The position numbers were made by a program, and so were the translations under genes. A model generated the notes under the pieces. That model saw only the letters and a program-made list of their open reading frames with translations. It searched no databases and was not told where the DNA came from. Source: an uncultured bacterium (GTDB lineage: Bacteria; Patescibacteriota; Minisyncoccia; Phycocordibacterales; PALSA-1337). From it: a DNA stretch of 64,000 bases. Location of the stretch: assembly GCA_903839725.1 (NCBI GenBank), contig CAIMDG010000001.1:3558-67557 (forward strand), written 5' to 3'. Below are positions 611 through 61,926 of this stretch, in pieces (position 1 is the stretch's first letter; every line of letters begins with the position of its first letter).

Positions 611-661
611 TGTCCTACTAGCATACGGTATATTCGATGTTTTTTCAATCTTTTATATTCA

Positions 662-785
662 GAACGGCACAGGAGGTGTGTGTACTCATTTTGTGCAGAA
701 GTTTGTAAACATCGAGGTAAGCGGTGTAATGTACATGTCTCTAAACTTCTGCACAAAATGAGTACACACACCTCCTGTGCCGTTC
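662..785. repeat. Palindromic hairpin element copy 1: ~43-bp perfect inverted arms (662-704 / 743-785) around a 38-nt loop
   Basis: Seen directly. Arm gaacggcacaggaggtgtgtgtactcattttgtgcagaagttt matches its reverse complement exactly. The loop gtaaacatcgaggtaagcggtgtaatgtacatgtctct is conserved in the copies at 24661-24790 and 29476-29603. Confidence 0.85.
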
Positions 786-832
786 TTCGTTAAAAGATGA
801 AAAACATCTAATTTTCTGCTAAAGTATGTGAC

Positions 833-10722: not shown

Positions 10723-10754
10723 AAAAATCCCGCATACAATATGCGGGATTTTTC
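10723..10754 (+). terminator. Rho-independent terminator
   Basis: Perfect hairpin aaaaatcccgcat acaat atgcgggattttt immediately after the stop at 10711. Confidence 0.7.
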
Positions 10755-10777
10755 TATGCATTCGTTAAATTAAGAAA

Positions 10778-10873
10778 CACCCTTCACGGCACAACTTTCT
10801 TCCGTCGCCTGCGGGCGCTAATCGCTGGCTACCCATCCTCGGCGCACTACAGAAAGTTGTGCCGTGAAGGGTG
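10778..10873. repeat. GC-loop hairpin element, copy A: 23-bp perfect stem around a 50-nt GC-rich loop
   Basis: Stem cacccttcacggcacaactttct / agaaagttgtgccgtgaagggtg. The loop tccgtcgcctgcgggcgctaatcgctggctacccatcctcggcgcactac is the reverse complement of the core of the loop at 20511-20584. Confidence 0.8.
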
Positions 10874-10883
10874 CAAACTCAAT

Positions 10884-12176
10884 TTATATACCTAACTTTT
10901 TGGTACCGTCAGCCTTCAAGGGTTTCGTATGTGTTTGAGTATCTAGTGCACCAGCAAGAGCAATCATAAGAGCATTGTCACCAGAAATATGTTGATTGGG
11001 CATGTATAGAGGAATACTGTATTCATCCGCTATCACCTGGAATCGTTTTCGAAGAAGATGGTTCGCGCTAACACCACCACCGATGATGATTGTCTGGGCA
11101 CCTGTCTGCTCTATGGCTGCACGAAGCTTCGTTTCGAGGGTTTCTGCGACTGCTTGCTCAAACTCGTAAGCCAGGCCTTTTTTGAAGGTTTCTGAAAGGG
11201 GTCCTGTTGCATTTGATGCTTCACGGACCGCATAGAGTACTGCTGTTTTGAGTCCTGAGAATGAAAAATCAAGGTCCTTACTATTGATCATTGGTCGAGG
11301 TAGTTTGACAGGTGAAGGGATCTTTTGTTCCCAGGCTTCATGGGAGTATTTTGATATATGAGGTCCGCCAGGATATGGTAGTCCAAGAAGTCGTGCAGCT
11401 TTATCGAACGCTTCTCCAACAGCATCGTCCTTTGTTTGGCCGATAATTGAATAGTGCATGCCTGATTCAACATTGACCAATTCAGTATGACCGCCGCTGA
11501 TGAGAAGAGCGATTGCAGGGAATGCGAGAGGTTTGAGTTTTTGCCATGTGCCGTAGGGAACATCAGTTTGAAGTAGTGAACCAACGACGTGTCCTTCCAT
11601 GTGATTGACGGGAATGAGAGGAACATTCCACAGGTCGGCAAGAATTCGTGCGAAGCTGATACCGACCCAAAGTGCAGGTTCAAGGCCTGGACCTTCGGTG
11701 ATTGCGATTGCATCTATGGGAAGTTTTTCTTTCAAAAAGTCAGCGTGTGATATTGATTCAATGAGGTCAGGATTGGAAACTTGCAGAGTTGGGCGGAATG
11801 AGTCGATGATTGTATTGAAATGTGTATCAGTATCGACGTCACCCGAGACAGAAATATCTTCTGAGCGGATTCGCGCACGCTCCGCTACAATCCGCTCAGA
11901 AGAATTTCCATCCCGGGTAACGTCTCGCTGAGAACCGATTTCCCTTAATGTATCTTTTGAATCAATGATAAGCTTGTGGAGTAAAGGTACAATATTTTTA
12001 CCATGTTCACGTTTTGCGAGAGTAGGAAAGACTCCACCATATGCACTATGAAGATCTGCCTGAGAATGTACTAACGATGAAATAACTCGGCACTCGAGTT
12101 GAGTACCAGTTCCACGTGTTTCTATAAATGCGAGTGCTGTATCGTCACAGCTTGTTTCGATGCCGAGAATTATCAT
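10884..12176 (-). CDS. tsaD: tRNA N6-adenosine threonylcarbamoyltransferase (Kae1/TsaD family) with a ~70-aa internal insertion
   Basis: MIILGIETSCDDTALAF start. Conserved HMEGH and GGGVSANHLLR motifs are present. The ORF track extends to 12242 (TTG), but those 22 codons overlap tRNA-Val, so the ATG at ~12176 is preferred. Confidence 0.85.
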   Translation of the reverse strand: MIILGIETSCDDTALAFIETRGTGTQLECRVISSLVHSQADLHSAYGGVFPTLAKREHGKNIVPLLHKLIIDSKDTLREIGSQRDVTRDGNSSERIVAERARIRSEDISVSGDVDTDTHFNTIIDSFRPTLQVSNPDLIESISHADFLKEKLPIDAIAITEGPGLEPALWVGISFARILADLWNVPLIPVNHMEGHVVGSLLQTDVPYGTWQKLKPLAFPAIALLISGGHTELVNVESGMHYSIIGQTKDDAVGEAFDKAARLLGLPYPGGPHISKYSHEAWEQKIPSPVKLPRPMINSKDLDFSFSGLKTAVLYAVREASNATGPLSETFKKGLAYEFEQAVAETLETKLRAAIEQTGAQTIIIGGGVSANHLLRKRFQVIADEYSIPLYMPNQHISGDNALMIALAGALDTQTHTKPLKADGTKKLGI

Positions 12177-12182
12177 GTAAGT

Positions 12183-12258
12183 GGTGCGCGATACAGGATT
12201 CGAACCTGTGACCCTTCCCACGTCAAGGGAATGCTCTACCAACTGAGCTAACCGCGCG
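12183..12258 (-). tRNA. tRNA-Val (anticodon GAC), CCA encoded
   Basis: GCGCGGTTAGCTCAGTTGGTAGAGCATTCCCTTGACGTGGGAAGGTCACAGGTTCGAATCCTGTATCGCGCACCA. Acceptor, D, anticodon (loop TTGACGT) and T arms all pair. Confidence 0.85.
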
Positions 12259-12448
12259 ATTTTCCTTTCCCAAGGAAAATCGGATCGAGTAATTCCTGTT
12301 GCGTAAGCAACGGGAATTACGAGACCAGAATTTCCTCTTCCAACTTTGACACTATATCTACGTAAATTACTCTATCAAAAAACTCTTAAAAAATCTATCA
12401 TCTCATGCTAAGATACGTTTACTAATAGTAAGTGTAAATATACTCAAA

Positions 12449-12868
12449 ATGAAAGCATTACATGGGTTCAAAGAGTTTGTATTGCGTGGCAATGTGATTG
12501 ATCTTGCGGTTGGTGTTGTTATCGGTGCCTCATTCAGCGGCCTTGTGACTGCTCTGGTAAAAGATATCATAATGCCTATCGTTGGAGCCTTCGGCAAAGT
12601 ACCCAATTTTTCAAGTCTGTCTTTCGCTATCAATGGTAGTAGATTCATGTATGGAGATTTCTTGAATGTCCTTATTTCATTTCTCTTGGTTGCGGTTGCT
12701 GTGTATTTCTTTGTGGTATTGCCAGTCAATGCGCTTGTTGCTCGTACAAGAAAAGACCCATCTCCGGTGGATTTGAACACAAAAAAATGTTCAGAGTGTC
12801 TAAGTGACATTCCTCTTCATGCAACTCGCTGCGCACACTGCACAACGAAAATATCAAAAACTGCCTAG
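12449..12868 (+). CDS. mscL: Large-conductance mechanosensitive channel with a C-terminal Cys4 zinc-ribbon-like tail
   Basis: Conserved MscL N-terminal motif MKALHGFKEFVLRGNVIDLAVGVVIGASF. The C-terminus is CSECLSDIPLHATRCAHCTT. Confidence 0.85.
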   Translation: MKALHGFKEFVLRGNVIDLAVGVVIGASFSGLVTALVKDIIMPIVGAFGKVPNFSSLSFAINGSRFMYGDFLNVLISFLLVAVAVYFFVVLPVNALVARTRKDPSPVDLNTKKCSECLSDIPLHATRCAHCTTKISKTA

Positions 12869-13869
12869 TACTCAGTAGCACCTGTGACAGTAACTCCTGT
12901 ACGAGTCAGTAATGTCTCGTATAAAGTTGTATGCATAATTTTAATATGAGTAGCATCCTTCACAATTTGAAGTTTGATTACATTTCCTTTCATAACGTCA
13001 GCTGAAAAATATTGGTCAAAGAGAAGATTACCAAGAGAATAATATACTGGCACATCTTCAATCATCTCATATTCTTGAATAACGTGCGGATGAGAACCGA
13101 TAATTGCACCAGCACCTGCAGTTATCAATTCACGGGCTTGTTTTTGTTGTAGGACTGATGAAGTAGTTGCATATTCGGTACCCCAGTGAGGCATAACAAT
13201 AACAAAATATCCCTGGTGTGACAGTCGTTCTACGTCACTCAGAATACGACTAAACCCCGGTTGAAATTGGTGGTAGCCAACAAAAGCAACAGGTATTCCA
13301 TGTTTAGTCACGGTTGCTTCTGTACTTGAGGCATTCCATGGATTACCAAAATATCCAACACCTGCACGAGTGAGTACATCTTGGGTCTCATTGAATCCTT
13401 CTATGCCAAAATTGTCAGTATGATTGTTGGCGAGACTAACAAATGAGATACCAATTCTCGCGAGCAATTCTCCAGTACTTGTTGCAAATGTGAAAGCAAA
13501 ACTTTTTGATGTTGATCCGTTGGCTAAAAGTGTTTTTGAAGAGCTTGAAGTGATGGGACCTTCGAGATTGGCAACGATAATATCAGATTGCTTGAATAGG
13601 GGAATCAGATCAGTGAATAATGAATCATAGCCGTGTTTGTCACCTTGTCTACGTATTGAACGGTCGAGCATGATATCTCCACCGATCAGTATTGTGAGTT
13701 CTGATGATGTTGCTTGAATGTGTGAGGGTATCTTATTGGTATGCTCAGTTTGAATCGCTGTATAGTGTATTCGAGAAGGTGAGTTAGTCACTACTACAAG
13801 GAGTGCAAGAAAAAGAGTGATGCCGATGAGTATCCAGAAAATAGTGAGTGTGTGTTTCTTGAGCGACAT
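12865..13869 (-). CDS. CapA/PGA_cap family metallophosphoesterase (poly-gamma-glutamate capsule CapA-like)
   Basis: Signal/TM N-terminus. ILIGGDIMLDRSIRRQ, GNHTDNFG, MPHWG and GAGAIIGSHPHV are metallophosphatase motifs. Confidence 0.7.
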   Translation of the reverse strand: MSLKKHTLTIFWILIGITLFLALLVVVTNSPSRIHYTAIQTEHTNKIPSHIQATSSELTILIGGDIMLDRSIRRQGDKHGYDSLFTDLIPLFKQSDIIVANLEGPITSSSSKTLLANGSTSKSFAFTFATSTGELLARIGISFVSLANNHTDNFGIEGFNETQDVLTRAGVGYFGNPWNASSTEATVTKHGIPVAFVGYHQFQPGFSRILSDVERLSHQGYFVIVMPHWGTEYATTSSVLQQKQARELITAGAGAIIGSHPHVIQEYEMIEDVPVYYSLGNLLFDQYFSADVMKGNVIKLQIVKDATHIKIMHTTLYETLLTRTGVTVTGATEY

Positions 13870-14023
13870 AGGTTAATTGTCGCTTATTGGGAGATGGAAG
13901 ACAAATTATCTAATACTCGGTGGTTTTTATGTGCCTGTTTCTGTGATCAATTGAAATAGTATTGTAAGAAAGTGGTATTGACATATTCAAATATAAAATG
14001 TAGTATTTTTTTAGATTCGGACG

Positions 14024-15010
14024 TTGAAAACACGCAAATGCCTTCCGAATGTCAGGTATATTGAAGTCCTACAACTCATTGCTTATATGAATACTACTAT
14101 TGCAGATACGGATTCAGCTGTGCAACGTGCAGCTAAAACCGCCGTTCCTGTTGCGCCTGATGCTTTGGCTCAGGTATTTCGGACCGCTGAAAGCGCCCGA
14201 ACCGAGCTCAGCAACCTTTTGCCGCTTGAACAAGGGCAGAAGGAAAAGCTCAACACGGTCGCCCATACCAATACCCACAAAGTGGCGGTGCTCGCAGCGA
14301 TGCAGGCGACTGGCGAAAAATACCTTGAGTTCCCGATGGAACCGATGACGTGGCGTGATGATAAGAAGCTGCCCGAACTCGTGCCGTTCAGTCTGACGCA
14401 AAATTCGGTCATATTTCATAGCTCTGGATTTTCTGAACAGAGTGTTCCGACCTCGGTTCGCGGCCTTTACAAGGACGTGAATCAAACTTTGGCCGGCGCA
14501 CTTGCCACGAAGAATGCAGCTACCAATGCTGCACAAAACAAAATGTGGCTTAAGTGGTGGTTGATGTGTCTGCCGGTCATTGCCCTAATCATGTGCTTGA
14601 TACCTGGGTCCTTCCTCGGTATTGCTGGCAAGATTATTTGGGGCATAATCGCAACAGTTGCTGCATGCGGTGTCACAAACTGGATCACGCAGGTTGTTTG
14701 CGAGAAAAGATACGGGAAGCTCGTCGAGGCCTATCAAGTCAGGGCTAGTTTCGATGGTCTCATTCCCGAAACGATTCGGCAGAAGATTCGTCGCGCAGCA
14801 TCCCTCGGCATCTTCACGGAAATATTCGTTCTTGCGGAAGTTCCGGGCCTTAAAATTGAAGAAGGTCAAGCGCCTCGTCTGGCTCGTGTCGGCGACCCGC
14901 TCGTGATCGGATATGATGGTTCGGGATTCTGGCTTATTGCGGCGTTTGATACATCGCCAGCGGAAGCTATTGCAATGTCAATGACTTTATCTCCTGGCGG
15001 TCAGCGGTAA
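14024..15010 (+). CDS. Hypothetical membrane protein (GC-rich gene; true start probably ~14090)
   Basis: Soluble N-terminal half, then two or three TM helices (MWLKWWLMCLPVIALIMCLIPGSFLGIAGKIIWGIIATVAACGV), then a C-terminal domain. GC is clearly above backbone. Confidence 0.5.
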   Translation: MKTRKCLPNVRYIEVLQLIAYMNTTIADTDSAVQRAAKTAVPVAPDALAQVFRTAESARTELSNLLPLEQGQKEKLNTVAHTNTHKVAVLAAMQATGEKYLEFPMEPMTWRDDKKLPELVPFSLTQNSVIFHSSGFSEQSVPTSVRGLYKDVNQTLAGALATKNAATNAAQNKMWLKWWLMCLPVIALIMCLIPGSFLGIAGKIIWGIIATVAACGVTNWITQVVCEKRYGKLVEAYQVRASFDGLIPETIRQKIRRAASLGIFTEIFVLAEVPGLKIEEGQAPRLARVGDPLVIGYDGSGFWLIAAFDTSPAEAIAMSMTLSPGGQR

Positions 15011-15027
15011 AGTGTCTCAGTGTTCTA

Positions 15028-15058
15028 AGCGGCGAAGTAAACCTTCGCCGCTTTTTTG
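15028..15058 (+). terminator. Rho-independent terminator
   Basis: gcggcgaag taaac cttcgccgc followed by tttttt. Confidence 0.7.
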
Positions 15059-15071
15059 ATAGAGGAATAAT

Positions 15072-15096
15072 AAGATGTGGTAGCCCTACGGGGAAT
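15072..15096 (-). repeat. Duplicated 3'-end fragment of tRNA-Glu (~21-25 nt), putative att/integration scar
   Basis: aagatgtggtagccctacggggaatc at 15072-15096 repeats the tRNA-Glu 3' end and flank (aagatatggtagccctacggggaatc at 15230-15256). Confidence 0.55.
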
Positions 15097-15233
15097 CTCG
15101 CCTTACAGGCGCAGTACAGTCTTCGCGTGGTACTCGCTTCGCTCCGTTCCACATGCTCAGACTTTTCGATTCCCCGCCGCAAGTCGCGCAGGCGACTTGC
15201 TTAGGGACAAGGTTTAGTTTGTTTAACAAGATA

Positions 15234-15308
15234 TGGTAGCCCTACGGGGAATCGAACCCCGATTACCGCCTTGAAAAGGCGATGTCCTAACCGTTAGACG
15301 ATAGGGCC
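15234..15308 (-). tRNA. tRNA-Glu (anticodon TTC), CCA encoded
   Basis: GGCCCTATCGTCTAACGGTTAGGACATCGCCTTTTCAAGGCGGTAATCGGGGTTCGATTCCCCGTAGGGCTACCA. The cloverleaf pairs, with a G-U at 1-72. Confidence 0.85.
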
Positions 15309-15422
15309 CTGCTACGCTGAGGTTTTGTAGGGTAAACTCTATAAAACTCATGCAGTAAAGATATACTAGCATTTTTTGTAAAAATGGCAAAAAATGGTAA
15401 GGTTTATGGATTCAACTAATAG

Positions 15423-15509
15423 GGAAAGGTGGCTGAGTGGTTGAAGGCACCGCTCTCGAAAAGCGGCAGGGGCGCAAGCTCCTCGGGAGTTCAAATCTCC
15501 CCCTTTCCG
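15423..15509 (+). tRNA. tRNA-Ser (anticodon CGA), long variable arm, CCA not encoded
   Basis: GGAAAGGTGGCTGAGTGGTTGAAGGCACCGCTCTCGAAAAGCGGCAGGGGCGCAAGCTCCTCGGGAGTTCAAATCTCCCCCTTTCCG. Confidence 0.8.
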
Positions 15510-15703
15510 CAAAACAATGAGTGAGCATCGCAAACGAATATGTTTTGCGAGAAACTAACAAAGCACCTGCGTGCTTGGGGTATTCACCATATAGTAACTA
15601 TAACTGTCCGTGTCATATATATACTGCTCAGACGGCATACATGTACCTGGGAAGGTTATTGTGACAGGTCGAATATCTACACTATTACTAATTATATAAT
15701 TCT

Positions 15704-16093
15704 ATGAATACATTAAATAAATATTCCAAAGTTTCAGCGATCATTGTCGGGGCAGGTGTTATGCTTGCACTTACTCTAACTTTTATTATTTCTACTCCTC
15801 AAGCTCAAGCCGCTCAATATCCAAATATTATTTTAGGCCAAGATATGGCAGTTGGATCTACCGGTCAGGGAGTCGTTGTTCTCCAAAGTCTTCTCTCGGA
15901 GACAGGTTATCTCATTATTCCAGCTGGAGTTCCATTCGGATACTATGGCTCTCTTACCATGGAAGCAGTAGCTCGATATCAAAATTCTCTCAATATCGTT
16001 CCTTCAAACGGATATTTTGGGGCAATAACCAAGTCAGCAATGTATAGTCACTTTGCAGTACATGGTTGGTTGGATCTGTTGGGTTGGAGATAG
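15704..16093 (+). CDS. Small secreted protein with a peptidoglycan-binding (PG_binding_1-like) domain
   Basis: Signal peptide. GQGVVVLQSLLSETGYLI...GYYGSLTMEAVARYQNSLNIVPSNGYFGAITKSAM matches the PG-binding pattern. Confidence 0.6.
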   Translation: MNTLNKYSKVSAIIVGAGVMLALTLTFIISTPQAQAAQYPNIILGQDMAVGSTGQGVVVLQSLLSETGYLIIPAGVPFGYYGSLTMEAVARYQNSLNIVPSNGYFGAITKSAMYSHFAVHGWLDLLGWR

Positions 16094-16229
16094 TTCGTGG
16101 GTATAGTTTGTGGCATTATAGTCAAAAATACTTTGCAGTAGATACTGTAAAGTATTTTTATATATATTATGTTTTGCTATACTACCTCCACGAAATACAC
16201 GCATTCATGCCTGCCACGTATGAATAAGA

Positions 16230-16772
16230 ATGAAAACAAAATATATAGTTTCGATATGTGCGAGTATATTACTCCTTGTAAGTGTCTGGTACATCGTCCG
16301 TGCTTCTTCAGAAATCTCTATTGATCAGAATGTATATTATCCTGTCACCTACGTGGTCGACGGCGATACATTCAAGGTCTTAATAGGTGGAAAAGGTATA
16401 ACTGTTCGTATGTTGGGTATCAATACACCTGAAACAGTTGATCCAAGAAAGGCTCCTGAATGCTTTGGTCATGAAGCTTCAGATGAAACAAAAAGGTTGC
16501 TAGGAGGTAGGAAGGTGCAATTACATTTCAATCCACATAGGGAACTCAAAGATAAGTATGGTCGCTATCTTGCATACGCTTACCGTGATGATGGTTTATT
16601 CGTGAATGAGGAATTACTTAAGCAAGGTTTTGCTCGAGAATATACATTTGGTACTGCGTATTCATTTCAGCGGGAATTTCGAAATATCGAAGTTGTAGCG
16701 CAGAAAGAAAATAGGGGATTATGGGGTATGTGTGGAGATACAGCTAAAAGATTGGAGAAATCACATGATTGA
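16230..16772 (+). CDS. Secreted thermonuclease (staphylococcal nuclease/SNase homolog)
   Basis: N-terminal TM/signal. SNase motifs VVDGDTFKV, VRMLGINTPE, ECFGHEASDETKRLL and DKYGRYLAYAY are present. Confidence 0.8.
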   Translation: MKTKYIVSICASILLLVSVWYIVRASSEISIDQNVYYPVTYVVDGDTFKVLIGGKGITVRMLGINTPETVDPRKAPECFGHEASDETKRLLGGRKVQLHFNPHRELKDKYGRYLAYAYRDDGLFVNEELLKQGFAREYTFGTAYSFQREFRNIEVVAQKENRGLWGMCGDTAKRLEKSHD

Positions 16773-17151
16773 TAAGAATTTTGATGTATGGAATGATCTT
16801 AAAAAGACTTTACATACATCAGTTAAAAATCATAAATCATTTCACGAAGGTGATATTTGGTGGTGCTCGGTCGGATTAAATGTCGGTTCTGAGCAGGACG
16901 GTAAGAATAATTTGTTTGAACGGCCTGTTATTGTGATTAAAAAAATAAATAATGATCTTGCTATCATTCTTCCTCTCACTTCAATTGTGAAGCGTCCTTC
17001 TTATTATGTTCATTTGGAACATGGCTACGTGATGTTATCACAAGTTCGCTTGATTAGTGCCAAAAGATTCCAACGTTTTATCACGTCAGTATCAAGCAAT
17101 GATTTACTTGATATTAAGAAGAAATTTATTAATATAGTCTTCGATATATAA
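16762..17151 (+). CDS. PemK/MazF-family endoribonuclease toxin-like protein
   Basis: GDIWWCSVGLNVGSEQDGK..RPVIVIKK...LAIILPLTS...VHLE..QVRLISAKRF matches the MazF/PemK fold. The ORF-track start 16732 (GTG) or the ATG at ~16762 both overlap the nuclease gene's 3' end. Confidence 0.7.
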   Translation, partial: HMIDKNFDVWNDLKKTLHTSVKNHKSFHEGDIWWCSVGLNVGSEQDGKNNLFERPVIVIKKINNDLAIILPLTSIVKRPSYYVHLEHGYVMLSQVRLISAKRFQRFITSVSSNDLLDIKKKFINIVFDI

Positions 17152-17301
17152 ATTTCAAAGCCCCATCTTCATGGGGCTTCGCGGCTTCCCTTTATCCAGT
17201 GGAATAATCCAAAGAAGGGTACCTCGGAGGTTACATGCAGTCTTTTCATCCCGTAACCCTTTGTGTTAAAAGTTTAACAAAAATGAGTTGTTTGTCAATT
17301 C

Positions 17302-18228
17302 TTAGTGAGAATGAAGATATGAATAAATATCCTCTAATGCCTTTACTGCATCTCCTACAGCAATATTGTTTTGATGATAGAGACCGTCCGTAACGTCGCC
17401 CGCTGCCCAAATTCCAGTAACAGATGTACGTTGATTGCGAGCGTCGACGACGACGTGGTTGTGTTTGTCTAATGTAACTGTATCTTTTGCAAAATCAGTA
17501 TTGGGAATCGAACCAATTTCGACGAATATACCAGTGACAGGGATTTCAATATCTTTGCTAGATTTTGTATCAGTATATATAAGTGAGTTAACAAATTTGT
17601 CCCCCTTAACCTCCTTGGGTACTGCAAAACTAATTGCTTTCATCTTTGGGTTTGAGAGTACTTTCTCAACAGTACCTGGATCAGCCTTGAATTCGCTACG
17701 TGCCAATAAAGTTACACTCTTACAATATGCGAGTAATTGAGCTGCACTCTCGAAGCCAGCATTTCCTGCACCAACAACAACGACATCTTGGTCTGCATAG
17801 AGTGGTCCATCGCAAGTTGCGCAGTAGGTGAGTCCTTTGTGTTCAAATGTATCAGCACCTTTCACTTCAAGTTTGCGGCGACTACTTCCTGAGACAATAA
17901 GAACAGTTTTCGCAGCATAGACTCCTTTGTTTGTGGTTACATCAAATGCGCTAGAATTTTTGGTGATGTTTTTTGCATATTCTCCATCTTTGAAATCCAT
18001 AATATCTTTACCATATGCTTTGGCATGCTTTTCAAGACTCTGTGACAATTCAAGGCCAGAGATTGCGACTGTACCAACCCAGTTTTCAATCTTCTCTGAG
18101 ACATTACTTTGGCCGAGCCAATCCTTTGTAATGAGGATAGTCTTGAGGCGCTTGCGAGCGGCATATACTGCTGCAGCTGCTCCTGCTGGTCCACCACCGA
18201 TAATTGCGAGGTCATATGTAGTATTCAT
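17302..18228 (-). CDS. trxB: Thioredoxin-disulfide reductase
   Basis: YDLAIIGGGPAGAAAAVYAARK (FAD). Redox-active CATCDG. NADPH-binding VVVVGAGNAGFESA. Confidence 0.9.
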   Translation of the reverse strand: MNTTYDLAIIGGGPAGAAAAVYAARKRLKTILITKDWLGQSNVSEKIENWVGTVAISGLELSQSLEKHAKAYGKDIMDFKDGEYAKNITKNSSAFDVTTNKGVYAAKTVLIVSGSSRRKLEVKGADTFEHKGLTYCATCDGPLYADQDVVVVGAGNAGFESAAQLLAYCKSVTLLARSEFKADPGTVEKVLSNPKMKAISFAVPKEVKGDKFVNSLIYTDTKSSKDIEIPVTGIFVEIGSIPNTDFAKDTVTLDKHNHVVVDARNQRTSVTGIWAAGDVTDGLYHQNNIAVGDAVKALEDIYSYLHSH

Positions 18229-18274
18229 GGGAATATTGTAACAAAAGGGTATTCATTAAGCCATTTTGAAGAGA

Positions 18275-18329
18275 TTGACACTAATCAATAAAATGTGCTA
18301 TAATAGTACCTACGATACACGTGTATCGT
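18275..18329 (+). promoter_or_regulatory. Near-consensus sigma70 promoter (TTGACA-N18-TATAAT) followed by an 18-bp perfect palindrome (putative operator)
   Basis: TTGACA at ~18275-18280 and TATAAT at ~18299-18304. ACGATACACGTGTATCGT at ~18312-18329 is a perfect palindrome. A strong AAGGAGG RBS precedes the ATG at 18369. Confidence 0.55.
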
Positions 18330-18368
18330 GTTCTTTTAAACAAATAAACCATCAACCAAGGAGGTCGT

Positions 18369-19025
18369 ATGTCAGATTCCAAAAAGACGACTGCGGACCT
18401 TGTGTTTGGTTTGCAGATCATTTTGGCTTGGGTTTTTAGTATAGCCCAGGCTCGACAGATGCTCATGAAGGGCACCCAGGGAACAACCATTACATGGTTT
18501 TTATTTTTTGAATTATTCCTGTCCGTCAATTTGTATTTGGCGTATGGGGTATATCAAGAGATAAAGGACCGCAAAACCTTTCAAATTTTGCTGGTCTATC
18601 TCAATTGGGTGCTTCTCATCACGGTTAACCTCGCGATTATCATGTGCAAGGGCACATGGAAAATTGATGACAGTATCGTCTCGATATTTGTTGTCATCGG
18701 AGTCGTTTCGACTCTGTGCGTGGGCTACCGTGGAAGCATCAGAAACACAATCGGGGACCCGGTAACCAAGGGTGTTGCGGCCATTTTCTTCAAGGGCGTG
18801 CCGCAACTATTCATGGGCTATTGCATCTACCGTGACCATGGTGGGACAGGTCTCCACTGGGTTGCACTGGTAGGAGGGCATTGCACGGTGTGCTTGCGCC
18901 TCATGGAGATAACCATGGAAATCCGGAAGATCGGGTGGAATAGGAAACTGAAAGGCCTATTCATCGGGGAAATTGGAAATTGGGGAAGCTGGATAGTTAC
19001 CTCAATAATTTGGATTGCAGTGTGA
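18369..19025 (+). CDS. Hypothetical polytopic membrane protein
   Basis: Intact 218-aa ORF with five or six hydrophobic helices. It is preceded by the promoter/operator above. Confidence 0.5.
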   Translation: MSDSKKTTADLVFGLQIILAWVFSIAQARQMLMKGTQGTTITWFLFFELFLSVNLYLAYGVYQEIKDRKTFQILLVYLNWVLLITVNLAIIMCKGTWKIDDSIVSIFVVIGVVSTLCVGYRGSIRNTIGDPVTKGVAAIFFKGVPQLFMGYCIYRDHGGTGLHWVALVGGHCTVCLRLMEITMEIRKIGWNRKLKGLFIGEIGNWGSWIVTSIIWIAV

Positions 19026-19055
19026 AAACCCGAAGCTTGCTTCGGGTTTTTCTTA
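19023..19055. terminator. Bidirectional rho-independent terminator (between 18369-19025 and ftsZ)
   Basis: aaacccgaagc ttgc ttcgggttt flanked by A/T runs. Confidence 0.65.
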
Positions 19056-19091
19056 TACAAAAAATGACCTCAAGGGTCATTTTTATGTGTA

Positions 19092-20282
19092 TTATTTCAA
19101 TCTTGATCTTCGAAGAAATGCTGGAACTGCACCCCAATCATCATCGTCATCCTTCGTCTCTTTCTTTGGTTCAGTCTTTTCTACAGGCGCTTCTTTCTTT
19201 GATTCAGAAACTGAATTGTAGATCTTGCCTGGTGTAGATGCTGTCTTGTCTGCACTTTTGTTGATAGCGATAGTTGATTCTGTGGAAGTTGATGTTACGC
19301 GTGGTGAAGCTCCTCCAGTAATAGAACCCTCAGGGAAACCAGTAGCGATAACGGTAATCTTGATTTCATTTTTCTTGAGCTTATCATCGCGAACAGTACC
19401 GAAGATAATCTTGGCTTCTGGATCGATAGACTCGGTAATGATCTTTGCAGCATCTTGGATTTCAAACATAGTAAGATCTTCACCACCAGCGATAGAGAAG
19501 AGAACGCCCTTTGCTCCGGCAATAGAAACATCGAGAAGCGGAGAGTTGATGGCGGCCTTGGCAGCTTCGATAGCACGATTCTCGCCTGAAGCAGAACCGA
19601 TACCCATAAGTGCTGATCCGGCATTTTCCATGACGGTACGAATATCAGCGAAGTCGATGTTGATGAGACCGGGAGTGGTGATCAAATCAGAGATACCTTC
19701 AACTGCTTGGCGGAGAATCTCATCACACATAACGAAAGCATTTTTGACTGTTGTTGCTTTGTCGATAGCTGAAAGGAGGCGATCGTTCGGAATAACGATA
19801 ATAGCATCTACTTCTTTCTTGAGATCCTCAAGAGCAGCTTCAGCAATACGACTACGCTGACGTCCTTCAAAGTAGAAAGGTTTGGTAACAACAGCAACAG
19901 TGAGACAACCGAGTTCTTTTGCAATACGTGCAACTGTAGGACTAGCTCCACTACCAGTTCCTCCGCCGAGACCGCAGGTAACGAAAACCATGTCAGCACC
20001 CTTTACTGATTCTTGGATTTCTTCTTTTGTTTCTTCAACTGCACGACGTCCGAGGTCTGGATTCATGCCTGTACCGAGACCGCGAGTGAGATTCTTACCG
20101 ATATGCACACGTTTCTTGGCGAGTGAGCGATGAAGATCCTGAGAATCTGTATTGATCGCCATGAAATCAACTCCACGCACTTTGCTTGCGATCATGTGAT
20201 TGACAGCATTCATTCCTGAACCTCCTACACCAAGAACCTTGATGCGTGCGAATGCTTCGATGTCGGGAGTAATGTTGGGCAT
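19092..20282 (-). CDS. ftsZ: Cell division GTPase FtsZ
   Basis: GVGGSGMNAVNHMI and GLGGGTGSGASP tubulin motifs. C-terminal conserved peptide DDDDDWGAVPAFLRR. Confidence 0.95.
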   Translation of the reverse strand: MPNITPDIEAFARIKVLGVGGSGMNAVNHMIASKVRGVDFMAINTDSQDLHRSLAKKRVHIGKNLTRGLGTGMNPDLGRRAVEETKEEIQESVKGADMVFVTCGLGGGTGSGASPTVARIAKELGCLTVAVVTKPFYFEGRQRSRIAEAALEDLKKEVDAIIVIPNDRLLSAIDKATTVKNAFVMCDEILRQAVEGISDLITTPGLINIDFADIRTVMENAGSALMGIGSASGENRAIEAAKAAINSPLLDVSIAGAKGVLFSIAGGEDLTMFEIQDAAKIITESIDPEAKIIFGTVRDDKLKKNEIKITVIATGFPEGSITGGASPRVTSTSTESTIAINKSADKTASTPGKIYNSVSESKKEAPVEKTEPKKETKDDDDDWGAVPAFLRRSRLK

Positions 20283-20478
20283 AAAGATAAGTTAAAAGTA
20301 AAAAGTTAAAAGGAGTGGCGTTCGTGCCACCTTAATTCTAATAGGACATTAAAAGTTCTACGGACGTACTCGACATGAAGGGGTAGGCCTTCTTTCTTGT
20401 ATGCACTGTATCATATCAAGTTATAGAAGGGGTGCAAGTCGATTTGGTCAATCAGAAGCTTGACAATATGTGGATATT

Positions 20479-20615
20479 GGGAAACGTATCTTTGCAGGAC
20501 ATAACTCTTCGAAGTGCGCCGAGGACGGGTAGCCAGCGATTAGCGCCCGAGGGCGAGCACGGCCTCCACTGGGCAGGCGACGGAGAAGAGTTATGTCCTG
20601 CAAAGATACGTTTCC
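20479..20615. repeat. GC-loop hairpin element, copy B: 31-bp perfect stem around a 73-nt GC-rich loop, in the ftsZ-ftsA intergenic region
   Basis: Stem ggaaacgtatctttgcaggacataactcttc / gaagagttatgtcctgcaaagatacgtttcc. The loop contains gtgcgccgaggacgggtagccagcgattagcgcccgagggcga, homologous (reverse complement) to the loop at 10801-10850, plus a 24-nt insertion. Confidence 0.8.
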
Positions 20616-20626
20616 TAGGACAGTAA

Positions 20627-21808
20627 TTATGGCAAGAATTGTTTGAACCAACGAGAAACTTTTTTCCAGAGATTTTTGAAAAAGGCAGATGTGGTGTCGA
20701 TCTCAGGTCCTTCGTCGGCGTGTGTACCCCAAATACAGAGTCCATAAGCGACTGCCCATGTGGCATCCTTGAAAGAAGACTTACCTTCAGTAAGACCAAG
20801 TGAGCCGATGCGTGAAGGGAGTTTGAGAGCTGCTTTGGCCATCTCGTCAATCATATTCAAGCCAGAACCTCCTCCGGTAATGATGATGCCGGCTGGCAAC
20901 AAACCATTTCTACCAATCTTCTTCAAGTGAGCTTCAACGAGATCAAATATATCTGAAACACGTGCAGATATGATTTCTTCAAGTTTTTTGCGAGGATATG
21001 AACTGCCGGTAATAGCTCCAATCTTAATCTGTTCTGCTTCCTCGAGGGGGACTTTGAGTCCAAGAGCAATGTCATTGGTGATGTCAGTAGAACCAATAGG
21101 GAATACTTCGAGAGAAGTTGGAATATTATTTTCGAATACAGCAATAGATACAGTTTCTGCTCCGATATTGGCGAGTACTGAGCCAGCAATCTTCTGTGTT
21201 TTTGAAAGAGTTACGAAACCAGCGGCAATAGGAGAAGCCATAACATCTTCGACTTCGATACCTGCTTCATTTACAGCAGCAATAAGATCTGACACGTGAT
21301 GATCAAGACAGGTGATAAATAATGTTTTTAATTCAAGCTTATTGCCTGAGAGACCTTCAGGATTGCCGAGTGAAGGGGTTCCATCAACTTTATATTGAAG
21401 AGGTATTGCGTAAATGATGCGACGATTTGCTATGGCTGCCCGAGGAATATCTTTTTCAGCTTGTTCATGCAATTTGGCAACATCGAGATCAGTAATCTCT
21501 GCATCTGCTCGTGATGTCATGATGGAGCTAATAACTACTGTTGAAGCAAGACCGATGCCATTTACTCCGACAAATGCTTTTTTGACTTTGATACCAGCTT
21601 TTTCCTCGGCACGTGATACTGCAAGGCGGATACTGTCTGCAACTTCACGAACATTGGTGACGTATCCATGTCTTAAACCACGTGATTCTGTAGTGCCAAC
21701 TCCTATAATTTTAGGGAACCCTTTGTCAGTCTTTTCTCGTCCATCAGCAATAACCACTTTGATGTGGTATGTTCCGACGTCAATTCCGGTAATGATGTTT
21801 CGAGCCAT
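20627..21808 (-). CDS. ftsA: Cell division protein FtsA
   Basis: MARNIITGIDVGTYHIKVVIA. Actin-fold motifs. C-terminal amphipathic tail. Confidence 0.9.
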   Translation of the reverse strand: MARNIITGIDVGTYHIKVVIADGREKTDKGFPKIIGVGTTESRGLRHGYVTNVREVADSIRLAVSRAEEKAGIKVKKAFVGVNGIGLASTVVISSIMTSRADAEITDLDVAKLHEQAEKDIPRAAIANRRIIYAIPLQYKVDGTPSLGNPEGLSGNKLELKTLFITCLDHHVSDLIAAVNEAGIEVEDVMASPIAAGFVTLSKTQKIAGSVLANIGAETVSIAVFENNIPTSLEVFPIGSTDITNDIALGLKVPLEEAEQIKIGAITGSSYPRKKLEEIISARVSDIFDLVEAHLKKIGRNGLLPAGIIITGGGSGLNMIDEMAKAALKLPSRIGSLGLTEGKSSFKDATWAVAYGLCIWGTHADEGPEIDTTSAFFKNLWKKVSRWFKQFLP

Positions 21809-21810
21809 GG

Positions 21811-21925
21811 GGAGGAGAAGTATGAAGGTATGAAGGAATTAATGTATGAAGGTATGTGGGTATAAAAGTATAAATGTACTACCGTGTATACGGACATACT
21901 TTCATACCTTCATACTTTCATTCCT
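21811..21925. repeat. Short direct and inverted repeats of TATGAAGG / CCTTCATA upstream of ftsA
   Basis: gtatgaaggtatgaaggaattaatgtatgaaggtatg ... catacctt catactttcattcctt. Several copies in both orientations in the ftsA leader. Confidence 0.5.
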
Positions 21926-22333
21926 TTATACTTTAAATTTCTTTCTCACTTCTACTTCTATACTCTCCATTATAGCGCTATGGTCGTGTCCTTTCAAATG
22001 AACACAACCGTGGATAAAGAGAAAAGGAAAGAAATTTTCATATGATCGATCAAATTTCTTTGCTTCTTCCTTTGTTTCTTTGGGAGATATGTATATTTCT
22101 CCTTCGGTTTCTGAAAGAGGGAAACTTAGAATATCAGTTGGAACTTCTTTGTTTCGGTATTGTGTGTTGAGTTTCTGTATATGTGCAGAAGTAGTAATGA
22201 TGACATTCAAGACATAGTCTTTACCAAGAACTTCATCTTTAATAGCCTCAAATGCTACATGAGGTATTTTCTCTTTTGTTTCGTTGGTAAGGGTGAAGTT
22301 GGACATGGATATATTGTATAGGGAAGGATGCAA
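21926..22333 (-). CDS. ybeY: Endoribonuclease YbeY (rRNA maturation factor)
   Basis: FIHGCVHLKGHDHS matches the H-x-x-x-H-x-x-x-x-x-H zinc motif. 135 aa. Confidence 0.85.
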   Translation of the reverse strand: MHPSLYNISMSNFTLTNETKEKIPHVAFEAIKDEVLGKDYVLNVIITTSAHIQKLNTQYRNKEVPTDILSFPLSETEGEIYISPKETKEEAKKFDRSYENFFPFLFIHGCVHLKGHDHSAIMESIEVEVRKKFKV

Positions 22334-22381
22334 TAAGCAAAGAAGGAAAGATATGTTGATCTTTCCTTCTTTGCTTATTTT

Positions 22382-24660: not shown

Positions 24661-24866
24661 ACAAAACGCGCAGGAGGGGTGTGTACTCATTTTTCTCCCA
24701 TAGGTTAGAGACACTTACATTACACAGCGTACCCCAATGTTTACAACCTATGGGAGAAAAATGAGTACACACCCCTCCTGCGCGTTTTGTGCAGCATCTC
24801 AAATATGTAATCTTCATTAAAATTTGATTCTTTTTTCATCACATCTTCATTTCAGTTTGATATGGT
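24661..24866. repeat. Palindromic hairpin element copy 2 (24661-24790; loop inverted relative to copies 1 and 3) plus ~75-nt conserved leader (24791-24866) upstream of the pilB-like gene
   Basis: Arms acaaaacgcgcaggaggggtgtgtactcatttttctcccataggtt / revcomp. Loop agagacacttacattacacagcgtaccccaatgtttac is the reverse complement of the copy-3 loop. The leader tgtgcagcatctcaaatatgtaatcttcattaaaatttgattcttttttcatcacatcttcatttcag is ~90% identical to 29600-29680. Confidence 0.85.
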
Positions 24867-29475: not shown

Positions 29476-29709
29476 ACGAAACGCGCAGGAGGGGTGTGTA
29501 CTCATTTTCTGTACAAGTTTGTAAACACTGCGGTACGCTGAGTAATGTAAGTGTCTCTAAACTTGTACAGAAAATGAGTACACACCCCTCCTGAGCGTTT
29601 TGTGCACAATCTCAAATATGTAATCTTCATCAAAATTTGATTCTTTTTTCATTACATCTTCATTTCAGCTTGATACGATTGTTGTATTAGTAATGTAATT
29701 ATTTTTTGT
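29476..29709. repeat. Palindromic hairpin element copy 3 (29476-29603) plus conserved leader (29604-~29690) upstream of the major pilin gene
   Basis: Arms acgaaacgcgcaggaggggtgtgtactcattttctgtacaagttt / revcomp (outer ends imperfect). Loop gtaaacactgcggtacgctgagtaatgtaagtgtctct. The leader matches 24791-24866. Confidence 0.85.
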
Positions 29710-61799: not shown

Positions 61800-61926
61800 T
61801 ATACAAACAAAAATCGCTCAACACATTGCTGTTGAGCGATTTTTGTTGGGTAACATGATATTGATTTGCATGTACCCATGCACAAGGTATAGTTGAGAAG
61901 TCAGAGGACCTTGAAAATTAAAATCT

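What the first reader, a model, noticed from the sequence alone, without database searches (positions are those of the whole stretch)
10778..20615. Second hairpin family: long perfect AT-rich stems (23 and 31 bp) clamping a shared GC-rich ~50-nt core, one copy sitting between ftsZ and ftsA
Seen in sequence. 10778-10873 and 20479-20615 have unrelated stem sequences but homologous loops (core ccgtcgcctgc..gggcgctaatcgctggctaccc[a/g]tcctcggcgcact). The two are in opposite orientation, and the ftsZ-ftsA copy carries a 24-nt insertion. A 60-70% GC structured core in a ~40% GC genome, preserved while the stems differ, suggests the core is functional. Candidates are a small ncRNA or protein-binding module, or a mobile element that inserts into pre-existing hairpins or duplicates its target as an inverted repeat. 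Its placement inside the normally tight ftsA-ftsZ junction and next to tsaD/tRNA-Val is unusual.
Basis: seen in the sequence. Interest (0 to 1): 0.55.

Follow-up and report, generated by a model that had tools for sequence, protein, structure and literature searches.

The report
Dispersed palindromic repeat family of CPR bacteria
The two hairpins are copies of a previously undescribed family of small non-coding palindromic repeats. The family is scattered through the genomes of ultra-small "CPR" bacteria, is gained and lost as whole hairpins between close relatives, and sometimes sits in frame inside a protein gene. Each copy has an almost invariant GC-rich tip on fast-changing but nearly perfectly paired arms.

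Summary
Perfect hairpins at 10778-10873 (23-bp arms) and 20480-20615 (31-bp arms) carry the same about 50-nt, 68% GC core in opposite orientation. Copy 2 has a 24-nt insert.

- **Family:** Pattern scans plus a covariance model found more than 40 further copies. All named genome records are CPR/Patescibacteria (Paceibacterota, Taylorbacteria, Saccharibacteria). Rfam, phage, plasmid and viral searches found nothing.
- **Conservation:** The core is 92-98% identical between copies, the arms about 45%. Arms stay 97% Watson-Crick paired, and inner helices covary.
- **Indels:** A near-isogenic relative (L050) lacks both window copies and has no empty stem. A third copy is a 96-nt in-frame insertion in tsaD, absent from its closest relative.
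- **Position:** Copies abut stop codons. Orientation is random relative to the abutting gene and to GC skew. No U-tract, target duplication or ORF was found.

Best reading: a selfish palindromic repeat like Rickettsia RPE, ERIC or MITEs, with an unusual architecture and an unknown mobilising enzyme.

The parts
10778..10873 (.). Copy 1: perfect hairpin with arms 10778-10800 and 10851-10873 (23 bp) around a 50-nt core. It begins 10 nt past the tsaD stop codon and lies between tsaD and the terminator of the convergent gene.
   Evidence: (117.8 bits); absent from near-isogenic L050
10801..10850 (+). Core of copy 1, top strand TCCGTCGCCTGCGGGCGCTAATCGCTGGCTACCCATCCTCGGCGCACTAC. It comprises a 3x3 internal loop, helix P2 (GTCGCC/GGCGCAC), a covarying closing pair and the apex.
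10817..10834 (+). 18-nt apex GCTAATCGCTGGCTACCC, the most conserved part of the family
10766..10886 (.). Possible outer extension of copy 1. A 9-bp helix TAAATTAAG (10766-10774) / CTCAATTTA (10878-10886) lies across a small internal loop and contains the tsaD stop codon (10884-10886). The segment absent from L050 is about 133 nt, that is, larger than the perfect hairpin.
   Evidence: present in the MFE fold, not in the centroid: weak
20480..20615 (.). Copy 2: perfect hairpin with arms 20480-20510 and 20585-20615 (31 bp) around a 74-nt core. It lies 11 nt downstream of the ftsA stop and 197 nt upstream of the ftsZ start.
   Evidence: (86.3 bits); absent from L050; identical in three independent assemblies of the same species
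20511..20584 (-). Core of copy 2 (top strand on the minus strand)
20550..20573 (-). 24-nt insertion CCCAGTGGAGGCCGTGCTCGCCCT, located between P2 and the closing pair. It can form an extra small stem-loop. L001:3785-3926 has a different insertion of roughly 26-29 nt at the same junction.
20527..20544 (-). 18-nt apex of copy 2
10884..12176 (-). Context: tsaD. In relatives (L044/L045, L014/L018) the same family sits in frame inside this gene's loop between GGHTELV.IE and Y.IIGQTKDD. The window's tsaD has the empty site at about 11450-11465.
20627..21808 (-). Context: ftsA
19092..20282 (-). Context: ftsZ

Best explanation
The two hairpins are members of a previously undescribed family of non-coding palindromic repeat elements, about 95-140 bp long, found in Candidate Phyla Radiation (Patescibacteria) bacteria.

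**Anatomy**
- Each copy is one long hairpin.
- Its tip is a GC-rich, non-palindromic core of about 50 nt that is almost invariant across CPR classes. The core consists of a pyrimidine-rich 3x3 internal loop, a 5-6-bp helix, one closing pair and a 22-nt apex.
- Its arms are 20-37 bp. They diverge quickly between copies but stay almost perfectly Watson-Crick complementary.

**Behaviour (shown)**
- The element is gained or lost as a complete hairpin, in either orientation.
- It lands mainly within about 25 nt of stop codons, and occasionally in frame in a tolerant protein loop of TsaD.

**Mechanism (inferred)**
- It behaves as a selfish, non-autonomous element comparable to Rickettsia palindromic elements, ERIC and MITEs.
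- The conserved core is the part recognised, in folded single-stranded or cruciform form, by a trans-acting enzyme not yet identified.
- The arms are kept complementary by a DNA-level process in which one arm templates the other, such as replication template switching at quasipalindromes or a hairpin intermediate. Selection on one RNA strand is not the likely cause.
- For the host, the main consequence is probably a very stable hairpin added to 3' ends of transcripts, or a 32-35-aa loop insertion in TsaD.
For: **Family and distribution**
- The core 20-mer occurs at 7 sites in GTDB genomes. The six records that name a taxon are CPR: Paceibacterota x2, Saccharibacteria x3, Taylorbacteria x1. The seventh is an uncultured bin.
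- The 18-mer occurs in 31 true metagenome loci.
- A covariance model found 7 further diverged copies.
- Every complete copy is a long hairpin.

**Gain and loss as a unit**
- L050 has FtsA 99% identical and flanks about 95% identical, yet lacks both window copies. Its spacers are 214 versus 344 bp and 42 versus 172 bp, and there is no empty stem.
- L044 and L054 also lack the copy at the tsaD 3' end, so gain in the window lineage is the most parsimonious reading.
- L044/L045 carry a copy inside tsaD as an in-frame 96-nt (32-aa) net insertion, absent from their closest relative L054.
- L014 carries one in the same TsaD loop, read from the other strand.

**Conservation pattern**
- Core identity is 92-98%, against about 45% for the 20 arm bases next to the core.
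- Arm pairs are 837 Watson-Crick, 16 C.A, 4 G.U and 2 other.
- All 22 outer-stem pairs show double changes.
- Inner helices are 99.4% paired, with 5 pairs and 26 cells of double changes. None of 500 shuffles reached this, and the covariation score was 0.003-0.013 in slid-register controls against 0.195 observed.

**DNA-level rather than one-strand RNA constraint**
- G.U pairs make up only 0.5% or 1.9% of arm pairs, depending on the strand read.
- Orientation is random relative to the abutting gene (13 versus at least 15) and to local GC skew (11 versus 12).
- The intragenic L044 copy has a degenerate core but 25/25 perfect arms.

**Position**
- About 28 of 36 copies abut a stop codon, with a gap of -15 to +27 nt.

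**Not a known RNA or terminator**
- Rfam gives nothing at the gathering threshold or at E<=10.
- Only 1-2 of 34 copies have a T-tract after the stem.
Against: - No mobilising enzyme, no autonomous parent element, no conserved termini and no target-site duplication were found. Transposition as such is therefore inferred from presence/absence, not shown.
- The flanks right next to the two window insertions are more diverged from L050 than the surrounding DNA. The copies could have arrived by recombination with a divergent allele rather than by transposition.
- The two window copies differ strongly in their arms although both look recent. This requires several co-existing source lineages or very fast arm turnover.
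- Covariation in the inner helices and the extreme conservation of the apex would also fit a host-selected structured nucleic acid.
- Mismatches are skewed 16:4 towards G.U on the bottom strand. This could hint at an RNA read from that strand, although the copies are not phylogenetically independent.
- Copy 2 is identical in the four assemblies of the species (the window plus three), so no ongoing activity is visible.
Confidence: 0.6

Rival explanations
1. A host-beneficial structured RNA motif in 3' UTRs. The long stem protects or processes the mRNA 3' end, and the conserved apical domain binds a conserved CPR protein or RNA. Copies spread because they are useful.
For: - Location directly after stop codons.
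- Covariation in the inner helices and an invariant apex.
- Variable-length insertion at one junction, as in variable arms of structured RNAs.
- Bias of 16 G.U versus 4 on one strand.
Against: - The core is in sense orientation to the abutting gene in 13 copies and antisense in at least 15. A transcript would therefore carry complementary, different apical loops.
- In the window, the strand favoured by G.U counts is antisense to ftsA/ftsZ for copy 2.
- G.U pairs are far rarer than is usual in RNA helices (own knowledge), despite heavy arm turnover.
- The core alone does not fold better than shuffles (z +0.4 to +0.8).
- Two copies lie in frame inside a CDS, on opposite strands.
- Both window copies are absent from a near-isogenic strain at two housekeeping loci.
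- No Rfam family matches.
Confidence: 0.2
2. A DNA-level cis element with a host function. It would be a cruciform or hairpin carrying a protein-binding apex, used for example in nucleoid organisation, replication or recombination. A role linked to the DnaA-box-like motifs nearby is possible.
For: - Independence from orientation.
- Watson-Crick-only arms.
- The motif TTATCCACA/TGTGGATAA lies 3-26 nt from the hairpin base in about 13 of 36 copies and is enriched about 6.7-fold near hairpins.
- Two copies are next to dnaA and dnaN. This assignment was read by eye from the N-terminal translations and was not checked against a family library.
Against: - The box is a general intergenic motif. 11 of 12 exact copies are intergenic, and several are far from any hairpin.
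- The box is present at the ftsZ-upstream site in L050 and L044, which lack the hairpin there.
- Presence/absence between near-identical strains, and insertion inside a CDS, are hard to reconcile with an essential chromosomal function.
- Only two copies occur in the 64-kb window.
Confidence: 0.1
3. One reading: a roughly 50-nt mobile core that inserts into the loops of pre-existing host hairpins (terminators), or that duplicates its target as an inverted repeat.
For: - The genome does contain long perfect terminator-like hairpins (22332-22379, 61806-61847).
- The distal 3' arm of copy 2 (AAAGATACGTTTCC) resembles the L050 empty-site sequence AAAGCCGCGTCTCC at 10 of 14 positions.
Against: - None of the three empty sites has a stem without a core.
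- In L044 versus L054, 98 nt including the entire palindrome replace 2 nt.
- Arms are homologous between copies at different loci, with similarity decaying gradually outwards, including the most distal bases.
Confidence: 0.05
4. An invertible DNA switch (inverton). The perfect inverted repeats are recombination sites, and the core flips between two orientations.
For: - Both orientations occur at equal frequency.
- The tsaD copies in L044 and L014 sit in the same loop in opposite orientation, with partly similar arms.
Against: - The inverted repeats are not conserved between copies, whereas an invertase would need a conserved site.
- Four assemblies of the window species (the window plus three independent assemblies) have copy 2 in the same orientation.
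- The core contains no promoter-like element that I could see by eye.
Confidence: 0.04

Closest known systems
Rickettsia palindromic elements (RPE)
   Same: Both are palindromic non-coding repeats of about 100-150 bp, dispersed in small, reduced genomes. Both are found in intergenic DNA and inserted in frame in housekeeping protein genes at sites that tolerate an extra loop. In both, the mobilising enzyme is unknown. (The RPE properties are from PMC10969869, and my own knowledge of Ogata et al. 2000.)
   Different: - There is no sequence relationship, and the host phylum is different.
- RPE families are conserved along their whole length. Here only the apex is conserved and the arms turn over while staying paired.
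- In-frame copies are the minority here (2 loci of about 42, both in one TsaD loop), whereas they are frequent for RPEs.
ERIC / IRU (enterobacterial repetitive intergenic consensus)
   Same: Both are imperfect palindromes of about 127 bp in transcribed intergenic regions, often at 3' ends of genes and in either orientation. Both are conserved across genera, have variants with insertions at fixed internal sites, are occasionally intragenic, and have an unknown mechanism of spread (PMC10969869).
   Different: ERIC arms are conserved in sequence. There is no GC-rich non-palindromic apex of the kind seen here. ERIC belongs to Gammaproteobacteria.
MITEs such as Correia, RUP, BOX and QMITE
   Same: Both are short and non-autonomous, have terminal inverted repeats that make transcripts fold into hairpins, are polymorphic between strains, and can sit in 3' UTRs (QMITE2) (PMC10969869).
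   Different: MITE terminal repeats match those of a parent IS and are conserved between copies, and direct target duplications flank them. Neither feature is seen here.
REP / REPIN elements mobilised by RAYT (own knowledge)
   Same: Both are extragenic hairpin-forming repeats at 3' ends of genes. Recognition of a folded single strand by a trans-acting enzyme is the model I infer here.
   Different: - REP stems are conserved and carry a 5' GTAG.
- REPIN loops are the variable part, the reverse of this family.
- REPs show strand and orientation bias. Here orientation is random.
Integron attC sites (own knowledge)
   Same: Both are imperfect palindromes of 57-141 bp directly after ORFs, in which structure rather than arm sequence is conserved.
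   Different: - attC sites have conserved R boxes at the outer ends, extrahelical bases and a variable tip.
- They occur in one orientation, in arrays next to intI.
- Here the tip is conserved, the arms are perfect, copies are solitary and occur in both orientations.
GC clusters and double-hairpin elements of fungal mitochondrial genomes (own knowledge)
   Same: Both are GC-rich palindromic mobile clusters in AT-richer genomes, found in intergenic DNA and in frame in genes.
   Different: Those elements are organellar and unrelated in sequence, and the whole element is GC-rich. Here only the apex is GC-rich.

Membership tests
Any Rfam RNA family (ribozymes, sRNAs, cis-regulatory RNAs) | Score at or above the family's gathering threshold | tested here: not met
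   The gathering-threshold scan of the whole window found only three tRNAs. E<=10 scans of both hairpins returned only low-scoring miRNA-precursor models, which match any long hairpin.
MITE | Terminal inverted repeats conserved between copies and matching a parent IS | tested here: not met
   Arms are perfect within a copy but only about 45% identical between copies. No parent IS was seen in the loci held. Whole genomes were not searched.
MITE | Direct target-site duplication flanking the insertion | tested here: not met
   Three filled/empty junctions show no clear direct repeat.
MITE | Short, non-coding, multi-copy, and polymorphic between related genomes | tested here: met
REP/REPIN-RAYT | Conserved REP palindrome with a 5' GTAG, and doublets forming the hairpin | tested here: not met
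   Stems are variable. GTAG at the bottom-strand core edge occurs only in some copies, while others have GGAG or GACG.
REP/REPIN-RAYT | A RAYT (Y1 transposase) gene in the genome | not tested
Rickettsia palindromic elements | Sequence membership in one of the RPE families in Rickettsia | not tested
   No RPE sequences were compared, so membership by sequence was not examined. All named hosts here are CPR, a different phylum. The resemblance is in behaviour only: in-frame insertion.
Integron attC | R''/R' boxes (RYYYAAC/GTTRRRY) at the outer ends, extrahelical bases, and arrays in a single orientation next to intI | tested here: not met
   There is no conserved outer box. Arms are perfect with no bulges. 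Copies are solitary and occur in both orientations.
Intrinsic (Rho-independent) terminator | GC-rich stem followed by a U-tract | tested here: not met
   At least 5 T in the first 8 nt after the stem was found in 1 of 34 copies on one side and 2 of 34 on the other. A canonical terminator with a T-tract sits separately at about 10723-10753.
Inverton (invertible promoter switch) | Both orientations present within one population | tested here: inconclusive
   Four assemblies of the species (the window plus three) all have the same orientation. No read-level data are available.

The most novel reading that the evidence does not exclude
The element propagates through a single-stranded intermediate that carries only one arm plus the core. 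The covarying inner helix of the core folds the 3' end back onto the arm and primes synthesis of the second arm (self-primed fold-back copying).

Every new copy would then be born as a perfect palindrome, and only one arm would be inherited. This would explain three features together: fast arm divergence with near-perfect complementarity, the conserved pairing at the base of the core, and the lack of target duplications. It would be a mode of DNA mobility not described for bacterial repeats, carried out by an unidentified CPR enzyme.
Probability: 0.1. Interest if true: 0.85.

Novelty: new variant of a known kind. Interest (0 to 1): 0.6.

Why it matters
- **Genome biology of CPR bacteria.** They have tiny, streamlined genomes and are thought to carry few mobile elements. 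A repeat family that crosses CPR classes with a nearly invariant core points to genetic exchange, or to a shared trans-acting enzyme, across the radiation. That it is gained and lost between near-identical strains, and can sit inside an essential tRNA-modification gene, shows that intergenic and even coding DNA is being remodelled by selfish hairpins.
- **A tractable mechanistic question.** The conserved tip on fast-evolving but perfectly paired arms is the reverse of REPINs and differs from MITEs, RPEs and ERIC. It offers a way to ask how palindromic repeats are recognised and how their arms are kept complementary, which is still unanswered for ERIC and RPE.
- **Practical consequences.** These hairpins break assemblies: Logan contigs end inside the arm, and the contig behind L003 starts inside a core. 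They can also create spurious small ORFs or inflate protein lengths (TsaD of 403 versus 436 aa).

Tried and rejected
- **Rfam:** scans at the gathering threshold and at E<=10 gave no family.
- **Core folded alone:** no more stable than shuffles, so thermodynamics alone does not mark it as a structured RNA.
- **BLAST of the core against phage and plasmid records:** only chance matches of 19-27 nt.
- **Viral contig scans:** no true copy. The five 18-mer hits are coding sequences unrelated to the family.
- **Profile of the three open reading frames through the core against 5.8 billion proteins:** one 74-aa hit only. The E<=10 limit makes this test too insensitive to count in-frame copies.
- **Terminator hypothesis:** rejected, because there is no T-tract.
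- **attC hypothesis:** rejected on anatomy.
- **Strand-specific single-stranded-DNA insertion of the IS200/IS605 or REP type:** disfavoured by random orientation relative to GC skew. Later flipping could mask a bias.
- **Core insertion into pre-existing hairpins, and inverted target duplication:** rejected at three filled/empty sites.
- **Flip-flop inversion:** looked for in independent assemblies and not seen.
- **DnaA-box-like motif as part of the element:** rejected, because the motif is present at the empty site in L050 and L044.
- **Literature searches for a prior description in CPR:** found none.
- **P0123 DNA (possible stem-only derivative):** not retrievable.

Full report
**1. The observation**

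Both hairpins exist as described. Copy 1 has perfect 23-bp arms (10778-10800 / 10851-10873) around a 50-nt loop. Copy 2 has perfect 31-bp arms (20480-20510 / 20585-20615) around a 74-nt loop.

The loops are the same sequence in opposite orientation, 49/50 identical. Copy 2 has an extra 24 nt at 20550-20573. A 22-mer from the core occurs exactly twice in the window and never in 100 shuffles. Folding z-scores are -8 to -12.

The core is 68% GC (counted from the sequence), in a window averaging about 42%. Pfam confirms ftsA (20627-21808, minus strand), ftsZ (19092-20282, minus strand) and tsaD (ending at 10884, minus strand).

One part of the description is wrong. The stems are not unrelated. They align with about half of the positions identical, and each difference is matched on the other arm.

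**2. It is a family, and the family is specific to CPR bacteria**

- An exact 20-mer from the core hits seven places in the 185,579-species genome collection. The six records that name a taxon are Candidate Phyla Radiation: Paceibacterota (two copies on one contig), Saccharibacteria (three copies on two contigs) and Taylorbacteria. The seventh is an uncultured bin.
- An 18-mer hits 36 metagenome loci, of which 31 are true copies.
- A covariance model built from 35 copies found seven further copies that lack the exact 18-mer. One has a different insertion of roughly 26-29 nt at the same junction as window copy 2. One has a partly deleted apex.
- FtsA homologues place the window genome among Paceibacteria/Parcubacteria.
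- Rfam, phage records, plasmid records and viral contigs contain nothing related.
- Text searches found no description of such an element in CPR bacteria.

**3. Anatomy from 36 unique copies**

Every complete copy is a hairpin of 78-136 nt. From the outside in, the parts are:
- arms of 20-37 bp;
- a conserved, pyrimidine-rich 3x3 or 4x4 internal loop (TCC / TAC or TCC);
- a 5-6-bp helix (GTCGCC / GGCG-C-AC);
- a short junction;
- one closing G:C pair;
- a 22-nt apex containing the invariant GCTAATCGCTGGCTACCC.

Conservation falls off from the core outwards. Core identity between copies is 92-98%. The 20 arm positions next to the core are only about 45% identical.

Yet the arms are 837 Watson-Crick pairs against 16 C.A, 4 G.U and 2 other mismatches. 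All 22 outer-stem pairs show double (compensated) changes.

The inner helix and closing pair covary cleanly (U:A 25 / G:C 9 / A:U 1; G:C 24 / C:G 10 / A:U 1). They are 99.4% paired. None of 500 shuffles reached the observed values, and slid-register controls were 15-60 times lower. The intra-strand fold is therefore what is preserved.

**4. Where copies sit**

- About 28 of 36 copies abut the 3' end of a gene, with a gap of -15 to +27 nt from the stop codon.
- The core is in sense orientation to that gene in 13 cases and antisense in at least 15.
- Orientation is also unrelated to local GC skew: 11 positive and 12 negative among loci with clear skew.
- Only 1-2 of 34 hairpins are followed by a T-tract, so they are not canonical intrinsic terminators. 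In the window a normal terminator lies separately at about 10723-10753.

**5. The hairpin comes and goes as a unit**

*The window versus L050.* Contig L050 has FtsA 99% identical and surrounding DNA about 95% identical to the window. It lacks both copies. Its ftsA-ftsZ spacer is 214 bp instead of 344, and its tsaD-to-neighbour spacer is 42 bp instead of 172. Neither empty site contains a stem without a core.

*The tsaD 3' site.* The segment missing in L050 is about 133 nt, somewhat larger than the perfect hairpin. It includes a weak outer helix that carries the window's tsaD stop codon. More distant relatives (L044, L054) also lack this copy, so gain in the window lineage is the most parsimonious reading.

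*The ftsA-ftsZ junction.* It is variable in this clade. Relatives have ydjM there (L044, L053), three genes (L048), or a short spacer (L047).

*Stability within the species.* Three independent assemblies of the window species carry copy 2 unchanged and in the same orientation.

**6. In-frame copies inside tsaD**

The model hit in L044/L045 lies inside the tsaD coding sequence. A net 96 nt (32 codons, SRSSIISSGLRALIAGHQSSTVEDDTTPAVLK) sit between ...ELVKIESDQH and YTIIGQTKDD. They are absent from the window, from L050 and from L054, the closest relative of L044.

Against L054, 98 nt including the entire 25-26-bp palindrome replace 2 nt, with no direct repeat. This copy has a degenerate core but perfect arms.

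A more distant genome (L014/L018) has a copy in the same TsaD loop, read from the opposite strand (...PRMGSQRLAPAG...).

This loop is a general insertion hot spot. Among the 113 sequences where the flanking motifs could be located (of 123 aligned: 120 homologues plus L044, L014 and the window), it is 10-11 residues in about 40% and 14-50 residues of unrelated sequence in the rest.

Three of the six reading frames through the core are open (hand translation; consistent with the three stop-free frames).

**7. Interpretation**

The following fit a selfish, non-autonomous palindromic repeat of the kind represented by Rickettsia palindromic elements, ERIC and MITEs (for their properties):
- a multi-copy, dispersed distribution;
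- presence/absence between near-identical genomes;
- insertion in either orientation at the few places a compact genome tolerates, namely just past stop codons and in a surface loop;
- in-frame copies;
- a nearly identical core across CPR classes whose proteins are far more diverged.

The architecture differs from all of those. The conserved part is a non-palindromic apex, not the arms. I infer that the apex, presented on a hairpin or cruciform, is what a trans-acting enzyme recognises.

Three findings argue that arm complementarity is maintained at the DNA level and not by selection on one RNA strand:
- G.U pairs are almost absent;
- orientation does not matter;
- the intragenic copy with a decayed core still has perfect arms.

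Replication template switching at quasipalindromes is an established process that converts imperfect inverted repeats into perfect ones (PMC7202029). It is the most economical explanation, but it was not tested here. Among closely related copies, 74 arm differences are compensated and 43 are one-sided, so intermediates do exist.

**8. What remains open**

- No enzyme, parent element, conserved terminus or target duplication was found.
- The DNA immediately flanking the two window insertions is unusually diverged from L050. Arrival by recombination rather than transposition is therefore possible.
- A host-selected RNA or DNA function cannot be excluded. I give these rivals 0.2 and 0.1.

**9. 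Verdict**

This is a real, non-chance feature. It is a new variant of a known kind: a palindromic repeat element with a reversed conservation pattern, in a phylum where none has been described. Interest is moderate to high (0.6). The mechanism of spread, and the process that keeps the arms perfect, are the valuable open questions.

Noticed in passing
window 20469-20477; L001, L005, L009, L016, L017, L028, L033, L037-L039, L041 near their hairpins: A DnaA-box-like motif (yTGTGGATAAc / TTATCCACA) lies 3-26 nt from the hairpin base in about 13 of 36 copies. With at most one mismatch, its density is 1.78/kb within 150 nt of hairpins against 0.27/kb elsewhere. Of 12 exact 9-mers, 11 are intergenic, and 7 of those are near a copy (hairpin positions compared by hand). 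The motif is present at the ftsZ-upstream site even in relatives that lack the hairpin, so it belongs to the host, not to the element. In the window as a whole it is not above chance.
   Followed up: partly
window ~11450-11465 (empty site) and TsaD homologues P0122-P0241: The TsaD loop between GGHTELV.IE and Y.IIGQTKDD is an insertion hot spot in Paceibacteria. It is 10-11 aa in the basal state and up to 50 aa of unrelated sequence in about 60% of the 113 aligned TsaD sequences where it could be located. The P0123 loop (QHSRGDITPPILK) looks like the L044 hairpin with its apex deleted.
   Followed up: partly
window 11857-11903: A perfect 15-bp inverted repeat with a 17-nt loop lies inside the tsaD coding sequence. 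It falls within a 26-36-aa segment (…SSERIVAERARIRSEDIS…) that is absent from TsaD of L044 and P0122. Similar 'SER..AERV' peptides occupy the other TsaD loop in P0152 and P0154. This looks like a second, unrelated family of in-frame palindromic insertions.
   Followed up: no
window 661-786, 24661-24790, 29476-29603: The other ('first') hairpin family consists of palindromes of about 130 nt. Their 52-54-nt arms are conserved between copies and 91-94% complementary. This is the classical MITE-like pattern, in contrast to the family studied here.
   Followed up: no
window 20283-20626 compared with L044, L047, L048, L050, L053: The ftsA-ftsZ junction is highly variable in this clade. It holds a ydjM gene in L044 and L053, three genes in L048, and spacers of 185-214 bp in L047 and L050. 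The roughly 190 bp upstream of ftsZ, including TTGACA...ATATGTGGATATT, are conserved between the window, L050 and L044.
   Followed up: partly
window 21818-21934 and 22332-22379: An imperfect palindromic, repetitive AT-rich stretch (GTATGAAGG-type units) lies between ftsA and ybeY. A perfect 21-bp hairpin with a 6-nt loop lies just upstream of ybeY. Long perfect hairpins are common in this genome's intergenic DNA.
   Followed up: no
L064, L065 (Logan contigs), L003: Contigs end or begin inside the hairpin: at the inner end of the 31-bp arm in L064 and L065, and inside the core in L003. The element breaks short-read assemblies.
   Followed up: no
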